Notes under the pieces: model-generated | Databases searched by the model: none | What the model saw: only the letters and a program-made list of their open reading frames with translations | What the model was told of the DNA's origin: nothing | Shown: positions 33,055-35,909 of the stretch, piece by piece | Layout of the letters: every line of letters begins with the position of its first letter | Numbering within the stretch: position 1 is the stretch's first letter | Program-made: the position numbers and the translations under genes | Origin: Candidatus Woesearchaeota archaeon | GTDB taxonomy: Archaea; Nanobdellota; Nanobdellia; Pacearchaeales; GW2011-AR1 | DNA length: 55,568 nucleotides | Assembly: GCA_964409555.1 (NCBI GenBank) | Contig: CAYPDP010000004.1 | Coordinates: 1 to 55,568 of the forward strand | Direction: 5' to 3'

Positions 33055-33693
33055 TTATAATTTTATTAAATCTTTTAAAGCTTTTTTTGAATCTTTAACT
33101 TTTATTATTCCTGATGCAATAGCTATTCCTGAAGCTCCGAGTTTCATAGCAATTTTTACATCTTCACTTGTTTTAATTCCTGCTCCAACAAGAAAAGGTA
33201 TTTTTAAATTTTTAGAAATATTTTCAATAAGTTTTGGTTTTGCTTTTGAAATTGAAATATTTCCCCCTACAAGTTCGGGAGGTTCAATAATTAAATAATC
33301 TGGTTTTAGTTTTTCAATTTGTTTAGCTTCTTTAATATTTTTAGAAAATATTGCAACTTTAAGATTAATTTTTTTACATCTTTTAAAAATTTTTTTAATT
33401 TCTATTAAAGACAATTTATGCTCTGAATGATTTAAAAAAACTCCTCCAGCTCCTGCTTGTTTAACACTTTCAGGAGTAATGAATCCAGTATTTCTTCCTT
33501 GTTTATAAGAATCAACATGTTGAGCATAAACTGAAAGTTTTGTATTTTTTGAAACTAAATAAATATCTGTAGCCTGAACTCCAATTATCATATTTTTATT
33601 TACTCTTTGGATTTTTTTTGCTAATCTTAAAGCTTTTTTTCCTGTACTTTCAGGATATGTCTTAAAATTTATAATTATTAGGGGTATTTTCAT
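33055..33693 (-). CDS. tpiA: Triosephosphate isomerase, archaeal type
   Basis: INFKTY, AQHVD, NHSE, EPPELVG, VGAGI; ATG 33693. Confidence 0.93.
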   Translation of the reverse strand: MKIPLIIINFKTYPESTGKKALRLAKKIQRVNKNMIIGVQATDIYLVSKNTKLSVYAQHVDSYKQGRNTGFITPESVKQAGAGGVFLNHSEHKLSLIEIKKIFKRCKKINLKVAIFSKNIKEAKQIEKLKPDYLIIEPPELVGGNISISKAKPKLIENISKNLKIPFLVGAGIKTSEDVKIAMKLGASGIAIASGIIKVKDSKKALKDLIKL

Positions 33694-33698
33694 TTTAC

Positions 33699-34697
33699 TC
33701 AATTTATAATATTCTCACATTTATTTTTTTTAATACAATTTATATTATCTATTGTGGTATTTAAAATTCTCTGAAGAGCTTCTTTGCTGTTAAAAGCATT
33801 ATGAGGAGTTATAATCACATTATCAAAAGTTAGTAATAGATGATTTTCTAAAAGATTCTGAAGATTTTCTTTTGGAAAATTTTTTGAGAGCAATTGTATT
33901 TCTTCTTTGATTAAAGATTCTTCCTCTAAAACATCCAAGGCAGCTCCACCTAAATCTCCTTTTACCAATGCTTTTACCAAAGCACGAGCATCTATTAATC
34001 CTCCTCTTGAAGTGTTTATAATGTATGCTCCTTTTTTCACTAATTTTATGCTCTTATTATTTAAGATATGATGTGTTTTTCTATTATATGGACAATGAAA
34101 AGTTATAATGTCTGAGTTTTTGAATAGATTATTGAGAGATGTATATTTGAATTTAAGATTCTTCTCAAGTTTTTTGTTTTTATACTTATCATAGACAAGA
34201 ATTTTCATCTCAAATCCTCTCGCAATCCTTGCTACATGCTGTCCTATATGTCCTAATCCTATAATTCCAATTGTTTTTTCCTTTAAATCAAAGCCTCTTA
34301 AACCTTCTAAAGAAAAATTTCCCCTTATTGTTCTTTCATATGATTTATGAATATTTCTTGACAAGTCTAAAATTAATGCAAATGTATGTTCTGCAACTGT
34401 GTTTTCCCCATAATAAGGAACATTTGCCACAAAAATATTTTTCTTTTTACAAGATTTAAGGTCTATATGGTCAAATCCAGTAGATCTTGTTGCTATTGCT
34501 TTTAAATTTTCAAACCCATCAAGAATATTCTTATTTACTACTGAATATATAAAAATAGATATGACATCAGCATCTTTAACTGAATTAATATTTTTCTTAT
34601 TTAAAACATCTCTTGAAAATATTAAATCGTGTTTCTTTAATTTGCTTTTCAAGTAATCTTCCTCCCACTCTTCAATCTCAAAAAAAGCTATTTTCAT
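33699..34697 (-). CDS. ldhA: D-lactate / D-2-hydroxyacid dehydrogenase
   Basis: STGFDHID, GLGHIG, NTSRG, LDVLEEE, TPHNAF. Confidence 0.85.
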   Translation of the reverse strand: MKIAFFEIEEWEEDYLKSKLKKHDLIFSRDVLNKKNINSVKDADVISIFIYSVVNKNILDGFENLKAIATRSTGFDHIDLKSCKKKNIFVANVPYYGENTVAEHTFALILDLSRNIHKSYERTIRGNFSLEGLRGFDLKEKTIGIIGLGHIGQHVARIARGFEMKILVYDKYKNKKLEKNLKFKYTSLNNLFKNSDIITFHCPYNRKTHHILNNKSIKLVKKGAYIINTSRGGLIDARALVKALVKGDLGGAALDVLEEESLIKEEIQLLSKNFPKENLQNLLENHLLLTFDNVIITPHNAFNSKEALQRILNTTIDNINCIKKNKCENIIN

Positions 34698-34728
34698 TTT
34701 TCAAAAATTATATTTTTCATTTTTTTTG
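34690..34728. repeat. 39-bp direct repeat, copy 1 (copy 2 at 35871-35909)
   Basis: attttcatttttcaaaaattatatttttcattttttttg is identical at both sites. Confidence 0.95.
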
Positions 34729-34801
34729 CTAATCTTAAAGCTTTTTTTCCAGTACTTTCAGTATATGTCTTAAAATTTACAATTGTAGTTGATTTTTTCA
34801 T
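34694..34801 (-). pseudogene. Chimeric mini-ORF: TpiA N-terminus fused to the aldolase C-terminus
   Basis: MKKSTTIVNFKTYTESTGKKALRLAKK-MKNIIFEK*; 71/81 nt identical to the tpiA start; tail identical to the fba end. Confidence 0.9.
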
Positions 34802-34950
34802 TTTATCCTCTTTAATATGATTTAATTAAAATAAAGATGTTTTTAAGGTTGTTGATAAATCTTATATTTTAAAAAATTAATAATTATAATAATTGTATTA
34901 AATGGATAACTAACATAAATGTTTATAAAATAATTATAAACTAAGAGTAT

Positions 34951-35871
34951 ATGGATGAAAAGTATTTATCCCAAATCGAAAATGAATATATGAAAGAGAG
35001 AATATTAAGAAAAGAAAATATATCTGCTATTGAATATATCTTAAATAGAGATTCACAACAATTTGAAAGATTAAAACAGTTAAAGGTGAAAAATAAATTA
35101 GATTTTGGAAAAAAAATTAAAAATAAAGAATTGTCTGCATTCTCTCTTGAAATTTGTTCTGAAGTTGATTATTTCTTAGGAATTAGTTCTGAAGAAATTC
35201 CTAAAATAGAATATTTTAAATTATTTAGACTAAATTTTTTTAACTTTATTTTATTATCTTCATATGGGGAATCATCTCTTATGATTGCAAATAGTCTAAC
35301 ATCATTATTAATAAATAAAAATTTACAGGGGCTTATTCTTTTAGCAATTGGGTCTGGATCATTTATAGCTACAAATCTTCTTCATAATTCTAAAAAACAA
35401 TCTCGTTATTATCCTGAATCAGAAAAAATTAATCTTAAAAAGATTAAAAGAAATGTGTTAATTCCTACATTAGGTCATGAATATGTACATCATATACAAA
35501 ACATAAATGGACTTAGAGGAGAAAATTATTCTATATTTGAAGAAGGTCATTCAAGAGGTGTAGAGAAACATCTAGCTAAAGTTTACAAAGAAAAAGAAGA
35601 TAATGAAGCATTTATTTTTAATTCTTTAGATAAGTTAGTTGGAGAATCAAAAAGTGTTTATATATGGATGTGTGAAAAATTTAACAAAAGTGTAAATAAA
35701 AATTTATTAAAATCAAAATCAAGTAGAGATTATTGTGAAAAAGTTTTTCGTCGATTTAAAAAAATTCCAACACCTCATGCAATAGGAAATTCTCTTTTTT
35801 CAATTTATGAAGAAAACTCTGGAGAAGAAATATATAAAAATATGATTCACGGAAACTTTAATTTTTATTAA
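34951..35871 (+). CDS. HExxH zinc-metallopeptidase-like protein
   Basis: GHEYVHH...FEEGHS; central hydrophobic segment. Confidence 0.55.
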   Translation: MDEKYLSQIENEYMKERILRKENISAIEYILNRDSQQFERLKQLKVKNKLDFGKKIKNKELSAFSLEICSEVDYFLGISSEEIPKIEYFKLFRLNFFNFILLSSYGESSLMIANSLTSLLINKNLQGLILLAIGSGSFIATNLLHNSKKQSRYYPESEKINLKKIKRNVLIPTLGHEYVHHIQNINGLRGENYSIFEEGHSRGVEKHLAKVYKEKEDNEAFIFNSLDKLVGESKSVYIWMCEKFNKSVNKNLLKSKSSRDYCEKVFRRFKKIPTPHAIGNSLFSIYEENSGEEIYKNMIHGNFNFY

Positions 35872-35909
35872 TTTTCATTTTTCAAAAATTATATTTTTCA
35901 TTTTTTTTG
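35871..35909. repeat. 39-bp direct repeat, copy 2 (3' end of fba)
   Basis: Identical to 34690-34728. Confidence 0.95.

What the first reader, a model, noticed from the sequence alone, without database searches (positions are those of the whole stretch)
33612..35909. Direct-repeat-bounded insertion creating a tpi/fba chimeric leader ORF
Seen: minus-strand order fba end - (convergent HExxH gene) - diverged tpi 5' fragment - exact fba end - ldh - intact tpi. The junction lies on a 9-bp microhomology (ttttttttg) shared by tpi and fba. The 35-aa chimera has a TATA-like element, a GAGGA SD, and a TGA overlapping the ldh ATG. Inference: a relative's alternative allele of this slot (fba-HExxH-tpi) circularised by microhomology and integrated via the 39-bp fba end, stacking two cassettes and giving ldh-tpi a new promoter. 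This would be integrase-free gene acquisition with the junction scars still visible.
Basis: partly seen in the sequence, partly recalled or inferred. Interest (0 to 1): 0.65.

Follow-up and report, generated by a model that had tools for sequence, protein, structure and literature searches.

The report
Recombination scar stacking two operon cassettes
A tiny DPANN archaeon gained an orphan gene inside its glycolysis operon through a sloppy, integrase-free recombination that left readable scars (a duplicated gene end and a stray gene start fused in frame); it is a clean example of a known kind of gene gain that seems common in these archaea.

Summary
An exact 39-nt direct repeat (34690-34728 = 35871-35909) brackets an 1181-bp unit. 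The unit holds an orphan HExxH gene, 149 nt of non-coding DNA and the first 83 nt of a second, diverged tpi. That tpi fragment is fused in frame to the last 10 codons of fba at a 10-nt microhomology (CAAAAAAAAT). The fusion gives a 35-aa ORF whose TGA overlaps the ATG of the next gene.

It is not a misassembly. Three other metagenome assemblies, including a strain that differs by SNPs, span the junctions.

The closest relatives carry pfkB-fba-ldh-tpi, with the fba stop overlapping the ldh start. So the HExxH segment is the newcomer.

The best reading is an additive, integrase-free insertion of DNA from an unsampled relative. One end was anchored at the fba end and the other was closed at the microhomology. 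This could have gone through a Campbell-type circle, an unequal crossover or a template switch; these cannot be told apart here.

Neither the donor allele (fba-HExxH-tpi) nor an excised form was seen.

Scars of the same type occur in other Nanoarchaeia loci, including around two HExxH homologs. The case is a new member of a known kind and is of moderate interest.

The parts
36630..37547 (-). pfkB-family sugar kinase, first gene of the conserved pfkB-fba-(ldh)-tpi operon
   Evidence: Pfam PF00294, E 2.7e-39. Lies directly upstream of fba in most of 80 related loci.
35875..36633 (-). Class I fructose-bisphosphate aldolase (DeoC/DhnA type), intact. Its last 10 codons plus stop lie inside repeat copy 2.
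   Evidence: Pfam PF01791, E 1.8e-45. NCBIfam archaeal class I FBA / ADH synthase subfamily hits.
35871..35909 (.). Repeat R, copy at the native fba 3' end. Its first base is the last base of the HExxH stop codon.
   Evidence: 39/39 identical to 34690-34728, with no extension on either side; only two copies in the genome.
34951..35871 (+). Orphan 306-aa HExxH protein (HEYVHH ... EEGHSRG, gluzincin-like motif), convergent with fba; the cargo of the insertion
   Evidence: No Pfam, NCBIfam, PHROG or PADLOC hit. 15 homologs at 34-49% identity, only in Nanoarchaeia/Woesearchaeota. AF2 pLDDT 94.4 with no PDB fold match. Absent from 60 relatives.
34802..34950 (.). 149-nt non-coding spacer (13% G+C) between the divergent HExxH and tpi' starts, brought in with the insert. 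Presumed to hold divergent promoters (inferred).
   Evidence: Sequence and composition. No counterpart elsewhere in the genome. No Rfam hit.
34719..34801 (-). tpi' : the 5' 83 nt (27 codons plus 2 nt) of a second, diverged tpi gene, with a GAGGA Shine-Dalgarno-like motif at 34806-34810
   Evidence: 10 differences from the intact tpi 5' end. 8 of them lie in the first 24 nt and 9 of the 10 are non-synonymous. It shares the lineage-specific ESTGKKALRLAKK motif with the resident tpi.
34719..34728 (.). 10-nt junction microhomology (minus strand CAAAAAAAAT), shared by fba codons 242-245 and tpi codons 25-28 in the same phase
   Evidence: It is the overlap of the exact fba repeat (34690-34728) with the exact tpi repeat (34719-34750).
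34690..34728 (.). Repeat R, displaced copy: the last 30 nt of fba plus the microhomology, the stop, and 4 nt (the first 8 nt of ldh), lying directly upstream of and overlapping the ldh start
34694..34801 (-). 35-aa chimeric ORF (25 tpi' codons, 2 shared junction codons and 8 fba codons). Its stop TGA overlaps the ldh ATG (ATGA), reproducing the ancestral fba/ldh coupling junction.
   Evidence: ORF list. Called as a gene in 3 assemblies. The same ATGA overlap of fba and ldh occurs in relatives G018 and G034.
33699..34697 (-).
   Evidence: Pfam PF02826/PF00389. Orthologs at 68-71% identity sit directly after fba in G015, G018 and G034.
33055..33693 (-). Intact archaeal triosephosphate isomerase. 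Its own copy of the microhomology is at 33611-33620.
   Evidence: Pfam PF00121; NCBIfam NF003302, 241 bits, above its cut-off.

Best explanation
An ancestor of this DPANN (Nanoarchaeia/Woesearchaeota-type) archaeon carried the operon pfkB-fba-ldh-tpi, with the fba stop overlapping the ldh start. DNA from a related but unsampled lineage, carrying a different filling of the same operon slot (fba, convergent HExxH, divergent tpi), recombined with it.

One end engaged at the fba 3' end. The other end was closed by an illegitimate join at the only long microhomology that the two genes share: a 10-nt CAAAAAAAAT in the same codon phase in tpi codon 25-28 and fba codon 242-245. That joint lies 39 nt upstream of the point where the insert departs from the resident sequence, so the fba end was duplicated rather than deleted. 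Two cassettes are now stacked: fba-R-HExxH-spacer-tpi'-R-ldh-tpi.

A Campbell-type single crossover of a microhomology-closed 1181-bp circle, an unequal crossover between two allelic chromosomes, and a break-induced or template-switch copy would all give exactly this product. No integrase or transposase is involved.

The consequences are inferred, not shown. The convergent HExxH gene now separates ldh-tpi from the pfkB-fba transcription unit. The imported tpi' start (spacer, GAGGA, ATG) and the in-frame 35-aa ORF that ends in ATGA on ldh probably supply transcription and termination-reinitiation coupling. That would explain why this recombinant survived in an operon encoding central glycolytic enzymes.
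For: - Anatomy: the exact 39-nt repeat is unique to these two sites. The 10-nt overlap of the fba and tpi repeats is in phase and is the only A8 run in either gene.
- Real structure: JGI 3300023548 spans everything at 100% identity. JGI 3300023478 spans 34559-36128. JGI 3300023310 spans 33423-34943 and 34932-41633 and carries 4 SNPs, so it is a different strain. Logan unitigs break exactly 30 nt into each repeat of 31 nt or more, as a k=31 graph of this structure should. 55-nt repeats at contig ends suggest the genome was assembled with k=55, which is longer than 39.
- Direction: fba-ldh-tpi is contiguous in G018 and G034, and fba-ldh in G015. These carry the closest orthologs found of fba and ldh, and the fba/ldh ATGA overlap is present. 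HExxH is absent from 60 relatives and from 80 fba loci.
- Donor was related: tpi' shares the lineage-specific ESTGKKALRLAKK motif, and HExxH has the genome's G+C and GC3.
- No mobility genes: the only ORF in the insert has no integrase or transposase signature. The genome's one intact tyrosine recombinase is on another contig.
- The slot is a hot spot: 27 of 55 related loci carry 61-3800 nt between fba and tpi.
- Same kind of scar elsewhere: L034 has a 55-nt pfkB end duplicated ahead of the next cassette, forming an 18-aa mini-ORF that ends in ATGA. L030/31/32 have a 47-nt fba start duplicated. L015 has about 165 nt of upstream spacer duplicated around the closest HExxH homolog. L104 has the first 14 codons of an HExxH homolog duplicated onto an inserted gene.
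- Literature: duplication of the homologous segment is the signature of a single crossover of a circle, as distinct from classical HFIR, which deletes (PMC3240628). Stacking of alleles by homology plus illegitimate recombination has been proposed for T6SS and Rhs arrays (PMC5361080).
Against: - The donor arrangement fba-HExxH-tpi was never observed. HExxH homologs sit in unrelated contexts.
- The repeat runs 4 nt (AAAT) beyond the fba stop into what is ldh sequence. If the donor had HExxH directly after fba, this needs a coincidence of about 2%.
- The repeat copies are 39/39 identical while tpi' differs from tpi at 10 of 83 nt. The differences are strongly clustered, with 8 in the first 24 nt (Fisher p = 5e-4). 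A simple donor-divergence model does not predict this.
- No read-level, excised-form, empty-site or transcript evidence could be obtained.
- Shine-Dalgarno-like motifs precede only about 10% of genes in this genome, so the role of GAGGA is uncertain.
Confidence: 0.6

Rival explanations
1. Double-microhomology templated insertion (MMBIR/FoSTeS-like template switch, or MMEJ capture). The donor only needed HExxH next to tpi, with no fba. Replication or repair left the resident template just after the fba stop at a 4-nt microhomology (AAAT), copied HExxH-spacer-tpi' from foreign DNA, and switched back 39 nt upstream at the 10-nt microhomology. The 39 nt are then a target duplication of the recipient's own sequence.
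For: - The repeat is 39/39 identical, as expected if both copies come from the recipient.
- It extends exactly 4 nt past the fba stop into the ldh start.
- HExxH homologs are never seen beside fba.
- Notes from this scan describe short target duplications with microhomology in other DPANN genomes (leads only).
Against: - The donor breakpoint would have to fall within 0-4 nt of the HExxH stop codon by chance.
- tpi is normally within 0-2 kb of fba in this group, so a donor with HExxH beside tpi most likely also had fba on the other side.
- Comparable scars in L034, L030 and L015 have copies that differ by 7-18%. That fits two alleles better than a self-duplication, unless those events are old.
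Confidence: 0.22
2. Mirror direction. The resident state was fba-HExxH-tpi, and the incoming piece was (fba end)-ldh-(tpi start) from a relative, joined at the same microhomology and resolved by a homologous crossover inside tpi.
For: - The product is formally symmetric.
- The tpi 5' ends are near-identical (48/50) just 3' of the diverged patch, which could mark a crossover region.
Against: - The genomes carrying the closest ldh orthologs (G015, G018, G034) have fba-ldh contiguous, so this route needs loss and then regain of ldh.
- HExxH is absent from all 60 relatives.
Confidence: 0.08
3. A miniature integrative element moved in trans by a site-specific (tyrosine) recombinase, with the 39-nt repeat serving as attL/attR at a gene 3' end.
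For: - Direct repeats of 15-60 nt at gene 3' ends are typical of integrase-mediated integration.
- The genome has one intact PF00589 recombinase.
Against: - There is no integrase in the insert.
- The repeat exists only at this site.
- One end of the 'element' is a housekeeping-gene fragment fused at a microhomology.
- The comparable scars in other loci use unrelated sequences: a pfkB end, an fba start and an intergenic spacer.
- No viral or PHROG relatives were found.
Confidence: 0.05
4. Assembly chimera of two co-occurring strain haplotypes (fba-HExxH-tpi and fba-ldh-tpi).
For: - At k=31 the graph is ambiguous at the 39-nt repeat (two ways in, two ways out). The other resolution would be fba-R-ldh plus an 1181-bp circle.
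- Logan unitigs end inside the repeats.
Against: - The tpi'-to-fba junction shares only 10 nt, too short for any assembler k-mer to bridge.
- The same joined form was assembled in the MAG and in three JGI metagenomes, one of them a SNP-distinct strain.
- No contig with the alternative joins was found among exact-protein look-ups.
Confidence: 0.03

Closest known systems
Campbell-type insertion-duplication (single crossover of a circular molecule through a short homologous segment)
   Same: The insert is bracketed by direct repeats of a native target segment, and the target gene stays intact. PMC3240628 reports that duplications of the homologous locus, rather than deletions, mark this route.
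   Different: The homology here is only 39 nt. The circle would have had to be closed by a 10-nt microhomology between two different genes. No circular form has been observed. The organism is an uncultivated DPANN archaeon.
Homology-facilitated illegitimate recombination (HFIR; de Vries & Wackernagel 2002; Prudhomme et al. 2002; Meier & Wackernagel 2003, as cited in PMC5361080)
   Same: One homologous anchor plus one illegitimate joint at a short microhomology brings in foreign DNA without a recombinase of its own.
   Different: Classical HFIR deletes recipient DNA between the anchor and the joint. Here 39 nt are duplicated, because the joint lies inside the anchor. HFIR is known from competent bacteria and has not been demonstrated in DPANN archaea.
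Allele stacking in T6SS effector-immunity and Rhs/CDI arrays (PMC5361080 and the references in it)
   Same: A newcomer allele of a variable slot displaces the resident one downstream instead of replacing it. This leaves orphan fragments of the conserved flanking gene as scars.
   Different: The cargo here consists of metabolic and orphan genes in a glycolytic operon. There is no conflict system and only two stacked units. The scar forms an in-frame leader ORF coupled to the displaced gene.
Microhomology-mediated template switching (MMBIR/FoSTeS) and MMEJ insertions
   Same: There are microhomologies at the breakpoints (10 nt, and possibly 4 nt) and a short duplication at the junction.
   Different: This mechanism is usually described in eukaryotes and a few model prokaryotes. 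Here it would copy 1.1 kb from a foreign template.

Membership tests
Campbell-type insertion-duplication | Insert flanked by direct repeats of a segment native to the target | tested here: met
   39/39-nt repeat equals the fba end plus the ldh start. The same fba/ldh junction is contiguous in G018 and G034.
Campbell-type insertion-duplication | A circular donor molecule carrying the homologous segment | not testable with these tools
No contig with the circle junction was found, but none was specifically searchable.
Homology-facilitated illegitimate recombination | Illegitimate joint at a microhomology of a few to about 10 nt | tested here: met
   10-nt CAAAAAAAAT shared by fba and tpi at the junction.
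Homology-facilitated illegitimate recombination | Homologous anchor shared by donor and recipient on the other side | tested here: inconclusive
   The fba end is identical on both sides of the insert, but no donor is known. The repeat overshoots fba by 4 nt.
Homology-facilitated illegitimate recombination | Recipient DNA between anchor and joint is deleted | tested here: not met
   39 nt are duplicated and nothing is missing relative to G018/G034.
Integrase-borne integrative element | Element encodes, or is tied to, a site-specific recombinase and a reusable att core | tested here: not met
   The only ORF has no PF00589 or other family hit. The 39-mer occurs only at this site. The genome's recombinase is on contig C6.
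IS / transposon | Transposase, terminal inverted repeats, short (2-15 bp) target duplication | tested here: not met
   No transposase. No inverted repeat at the insert ends in the repeat scan. The duplication is 39 nt.
Integron cassette | attC recombination site at the cassette end, with an integron integrase nearby | tested here: not met
   No Rfam family hit at E<=1 in 32500-37000. No palindromic site at the borders. No integrase in the window region.
Assembly chimera | The junction exists in only one assembly and is bridged by a repeat at least as long as the assembler's k | tested here: not met
   Junctions are present in 3 further assemblies and in a SNP-distinct strain. The tpi'/fba junction shares only 10 nt.
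Gluzincin metallopeptidase (for the HExxH cargo) | HExxH on a helix plus a downstream Glu ligand, with a zincin fold | tested here: inconclusive
   H176-E177-x-x-H180 and E198 are invariant in 15 homologs, and the motif lies on helix 167-185 of a confident model. However, there is no Pfam hit and no Foldseek PDB match at E<=0.001.

The most novel reading that the evidence does not exclude
The scar may be one instance of a general, recombinase-independent way in which streamlined DPANN archaea add genes inside tightly packed operons. DNA from relatives with a different filling of the same junction would be stacked next to the resident gene by short-homology plus microhomology recombination. The survivors would be those in which a duplicated gene end or start, here an in-frame 35-aa leader ORF ending in ATGA, keeps the displaced essential genes transcribed and translationally coupled. 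On this reading the duplicated ends are functional expression adaptors and not mere debris.
Probability: 0.3. Interest if true: 0.65.

Novelty: new member of a known kind. Interest (0 to 1): 0.42.

Why it matters
DPANN archaea have tiny genomes, few mobile elements and no cultured genetics, so how they gain genes is mostly inferred from phylogeny. Here both junctions of a gene gain can be read at base resolution:
- a 10-nt in-frame microhomology;
- a 39-nt duplicated gene end;
- a captured gene start.

The ancestral state is preserved in relatives, and scars of the same type occur at other junctions of the same operon and around homologs of the same cargo gene. This gives a concrete, testable model for integrase-free gene gain inside essential operons, and for how expression of the displaced genes is rescued. 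It does not reveal a new kind of system. The mechanism class (Campbell/HFIR/template switch) is known from bacteria.

Tried and rejected
- Search for the donor allele: exact-protein look-ups of HExxH, fba and ldh found only the same joined structure. The intact tpi protein is not on record. The best HExxH homolog is 49% identical. Homolog contexts in L011-L016 and L104-L111 contain no fba or tpi. The best fba in metagenome contigs is 77% identical, so no genus-level relative has been sampled.
- Mobile-element origin: no IMG/VR relative, no PHROG or PADLOC hit, and no Rfam hit in the region.
- The four-gene insert in the hydrogenase operon of the same window (24155-25782, from scan note e1-5243861) was checked for the same kind of scar. 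No convincing repeat was found.
- A genome-wide scan for exact direct repeats of 20 nt or more within 8 kb found no second clear case in this genome.
- Function of HExxH: the confident AF2 model gave no significant PDB match, and the PDB sequence profile search found nothing.
- Promoter scan: not run, because the tool models sigma-70 promoters and this is an archaeon. AT-rich matches would be meaningless.
- Repeats in L084, L060 and L107 turned out to be repeated intergenic elements and not gene-end scars.
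Full report
**1. What is there**

The window is 25% G+C and belongs to a 760-kb, 57-contig genome. Homologs of the cargo gene come only from MAGs labelled Nanoarchaeia, Woesearchaeota or Nanoarchaeota, apart from one contig filed under Cloacimonadota that looks mis-binned. This fits a DPANN archaeon.

Reading the minus strand from 37547 down to 33055, the genes are:
- a pfkB-family kinase (36630-37547);
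- a class I DeoC/DhnA-type fructose-bisphosphate aldolase, 'fba' (35875-36633);
- on the opposite strand, a 306-aa ORF with HEYVHH (34951-35871);
- a 35-aa ORF (34694-34801);
- an archaeal triosephosphate isomerase (33055-33693).

**2.

- Segments 34690-34728 and 35871-35909 are identical over 39 nt. They do not extend by one base on either side, and the 39-mer occurs nowhere else in the genome.
- The repeat covers the last 10 codons of fba, its TGA, and 4 more nt. Together these include the first 8 nt of ldh, because the fba stop and the ldh start overlap as ATGA.
- Upstream of the displaced copy lies an 83-nt copy of the tpi 5' end. It differs from the intact tpi at 10 positions, and its last 32 nt are exact (34719-34750 = 33611-33642).
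This is the only A8 run in fba (nt 725 of 759) and in tpi (nt 74 of 639), and it sits in the same codon phase in both genes. The fusion is therefore in frame: MKKSTTIVNFKTYTESTGKKALRLAKK|MKNIIFEK, stop TGA, overlapping the ldh ATG.
- GAGGA lies at -9..-5 of the chimera. In this genome such motifs precede only about 10% of long ORFs, although they are enriched at the right distance (GAGG occurs 19 times at -16..-4 against 5 times at -30..-18).
- The 'TATA-like element' has no evidential value in a spacer of 13% G+C.

**3. It is not an assembly artefact**

- Exact-protein look-ups recovered the locus from JGI 3300023548. That 22.5-kb contig is 100% identical and spans everything.
- JGI 3300023478 spans 34559-36128, which covers both junctions.
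- JGI 3300023310 has one contig spanning 33423-34943 and another spanning 34932-41633. Together they carry 4 SNPs, one of which changes an HExxH residue, so this is a different strain.
- Logan unitigs of SRR9849936 and SRR6114197 also carry the locus. They stop exactly 30 nt into each exact repeat of 31 nt or more, as a k=31 graph of this structure must.
- A k=31 graph alone would be ambiguous at R. The other resolution is fba-R-ldh plus an 1181-bp circle. The JGI assemblies, and the MAG itself, resolve the joined form; 55-nt repeats at the MAG's contig ends suggest it was built with k=55.
- The tpi'/fba joint shares only 10 nt, which no assembler k-mer could bridge.

**4. Which part is the newcomer**

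- Among 60 GTDB relatives, the closest orthologs show pfkB-fba-ldh-tpi contiguous in G018 and G034, with the fba stop overlapping the ldh ATG. G015 has pfkB-fba-ldh. Many other relatives have pfkB-fba-tpi.
- The HExxH gene is absent from all 60 relatives and from 80 metagenomic fba loci.
- So fba-ldh-tpi is the older state, and the 1142 nt of new sequence (HExxH, 149-nt spacer, tpi') plus a 39-nt duplication were added between fba and ldh.
- The tpi' fragment shares the lineage-specific ESTGKKALRLAKK stretch with the resident tpi, whereas relatives read KQGKKVLSLAK and similar. HExxH has the genome's G+C and GC3. The donor was therefore a fairly close relative.
- The donor is unsampled. The best HExxH homolog among 5.8 billion proteins is 49% identical, and the best fba in JGI contigs is 77% identical.

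**5. Mechanism**

- The insert contains no integrase or transposase and has no terminal inverted repeats. The region gives no Rfam hit. The cargo gene has no viral relatives. The only intact tyrosine recombinase is on another contig.
- The anatomy is: a conserved gene end, cargo X, a fragment of the downstream conserved gene, the duplicated gene end, cargo Y, and the downstream gene. This is what recombination between two versions of one operon slot produces when one joint is homologous (the fba end) and the other uses a microhomology between tpi and fba.
- In E. coli, duplications of the homologous segment were traced to single crossovers of circles, whereas true HFIR deletes recipient DNA (PMC3240628).
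- Stacking of alleles by an anchor plus illegitimate recombination has been proposed for T6SS and Rhs arrays (PMC5361080).
- I commit to this class of event at 0.6.

**6. What does not fit neatly**

- The repeat overshoots the fba stop by AAAT. If the donor had HExxH directly behind fba, this is a coincidence of about 2%. It would be natural if the left joint were a second, 4-nt microhomology, which is the template-switch or MMEJ rival (0.22).
- The two repeat copies are 39/39 identical, while tpi' differs from tpi at 10 of 83 nt.
- Those differences are clustered. Eight lie in codons 3-8, nearly all are non-synonymous, and they turn the hydrophobic first beta-strand PLIII into STTIV. Only two lie in the remaining 59 nt (Fisher p = 5e-4).
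- Uniform drift does not explain this. Possible causes are a mosaic donor, local gene conversion, or selection on the leader peptide. None was tested.
- Against the rival, the donor breakpoint would have to fall within 4 nt of the HExxH stop. Also, tpi is normally 0-2 kb from fba in this group, so a donor with HExxH beside tpi most likely had fba on the other side.

**7. The event is not a one-off**

- In 55 related loci with both genes, fba and tpi abut in 28, and 27 carry 61-3800 nt between them. For pfkB and fba, 38 of 56 loci abut.
- L034: the last 55 nt of pfkB are repeated (93%) 2 kb downstream, after two inserted genes. There they form an 18-aa mini-ORF whose stop overlaps the next gene's ATG.
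- L030/L031/L032 (three assemblies): the first 47 nt of fba are repeated (91%) after an inserted small membrane-protein gene, ahead of a second inserted gene and the real fba.
- L015 (the closest HExxH homolog): about 165 nt of the upstream spacer is duplicated directly downstream of the gene.
- L104: the first 14 codons of an HExxH homolog are duplicated as the N-terminus of an inserted 561-aa gene.
- Earlier notes from this scan describe the same class of scar in other DPANN genomes. These are leads, not evidence.
- In all these cases the duplicated piece is the part that carries the translation start or the stop-start overlap of the displaced gene. This suggests selection for recombinants that keep expression signals. 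That is an inference.

**8. Function of the pieces**

- ldh has no Shine-Dalgarno-like motif of its own. In relatives it starts inside the fba stop (ATGA). After the insertion it starts inside the stop of the chimeric ORF.
- The convergent HExxH gene now lies between pfkB-fba and ldh-tpi. Transcription of ldh-tpi from the imported spacer, and reinitiation after the 35-aa ORF, is the most economical reading, but it is untested.
- The HExxH protein is a confident all-helical model with a small sheet (pLDDT 94.4, pTM 0.90). H176, E177, H180 and E198 are invariant, which is a gluzincin-like signature. It has no family hit and no PDB fold match. Its role is unknown, and it moves between unrelated contexts in other genomes.

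**9. Verdict**

The direction, the microhomology, the absence of an integrase and the reality of the junctions hold. The donor allele, the circular intermediate, the excised form and the new promoter are unproven.
- The finding is a well-preserved natural example of additive, homology-plus-microhomology recombination in an uncultivated archaeon. It is a new member of a known kind and is of moderate interest. The interest is raised somewhat by the recurrence of the same scar type and by the in-frame leader ORF that recreates the ancestral coupling junction.

Noticed in passing
window 34951-35871 (+): The HExxH cargo belongs to a small family (15 homologs at 34-49% identity, plus further weaker hits at 28-52%) found only in Nanoarchaeia/Woesearchaeota MAGs. 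H176/E177/H180/E198 are invariant. The AF2 model is very confident (pLDDT 94.4, pTM 0.90) but has no Pfam/NCBIfam hit and no Foldseek PDB match. It is a candidate new zincin-like family.
   Followed up: partly
L034 878-932 and 2943-2997 (Ga0315276_10000492): The last 55 nt of pfkB are duplicated (93%) after two inserted genes. The copy forms an 18-aa mini-ORF (MVIKYFGAKNKLIRMRLK) whose stop overlaps the next gene's ATG, as in the window's chimera.
   Followed up: partly
L030 1415-1460 and 2162-2208 (same in L031, L032): The first 47 nt of fba are duplicated (91%) directly after an inserted 107-aa 'MKAWLKGG' membrane-protein gene, followed by a second inserted gene and the real fba. This looks like stacked cassettes between pfkB and fba, and it is seen in three metagenome assemblies.
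   Followed up: partly
L015 284-448 and 1414-1537 (ENA ERZ23498665 scaffold_136895): The closest HExxH homolog (49% identity) is bracketed by a duplicated upstream spacer of about 165 nt (94% and 82% blocks). Each copy ends in a TTTATAAAT/TTATATAT-like box ahead of a gene start.
   Followed up: partly
L104 946-992 and 2638-2684 (DATDWF010000015.1): An inserted 561-aa gene begins with a copy of the first 14 codons (MTPLTEEYK.AIEN) and the upstream 14 nt of the neighbouring HExxH homolog. The newcomer has therefore borrowed the resident gene's start.
   Followed up: partly
L003 vs window 36129-36164, 37623-37693 and a 2-nt homopolymer loss: The contig from JGI sample 3300023478 lacks 36 nt inside fba, 71 nt near the pfkB/GH15 spacer (the deletion endpoints share 14 nt) and 2 nt in pfkB. 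It is either a decaying variant haplotype or a poor assembly.
   Followed up: partly
L060 159-257, 4916-5010, 6376-6474 (Ga0209542_10011125): A 95-100-nt intergenic element is present three times (94-99% identity), two copies bracketing a 1.46-kb segment just downstream of fba. Its nature is unknown.
   Followed up: no
L107 2588-2633, 4426-4470, 5624-5667 (JAIPET010000001.1); L110: A 45-nt palindrome-containing repeat (TTTTTTCTGCAAGAAAAAA core) occurs three times, bounding short cassettes. One cassette holds only a fragment (residues 158-259) of an HExxH homolog. A contig with the same pfkB and HExxH-fragment hits at the same coordinates also appears in a MAG labelled Cloacimonadota (L110), which is probably a binning error.
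   Followed up: no
G018, L030, L034, L037 loci between pfkB and fba: Small membrane proteins starting MKAWLKGG(L) recur as cargo between pfkB and fba in several lineages, sometimes in two or three paralogous copies. NTase/HEPN-like pairs recur between fba and tpi (L030, L048).
   Followed up: no
window 24155-25782: The four-gene insert splitting the hydrogenase operon (scan note e1-5243861) shows no gene-end duplication or other convincing direct repeat. If it arose in the same way, the scar has decayed.
   Followed up: partly
genome contigs C13, C21, C1, C47 ends: Exact 55-nt (and 46-nt) repeats at contig ends suggest the MAG was assembled with a largest k of 55, which is longer than the 39-nt repeat.
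   Followed up: no
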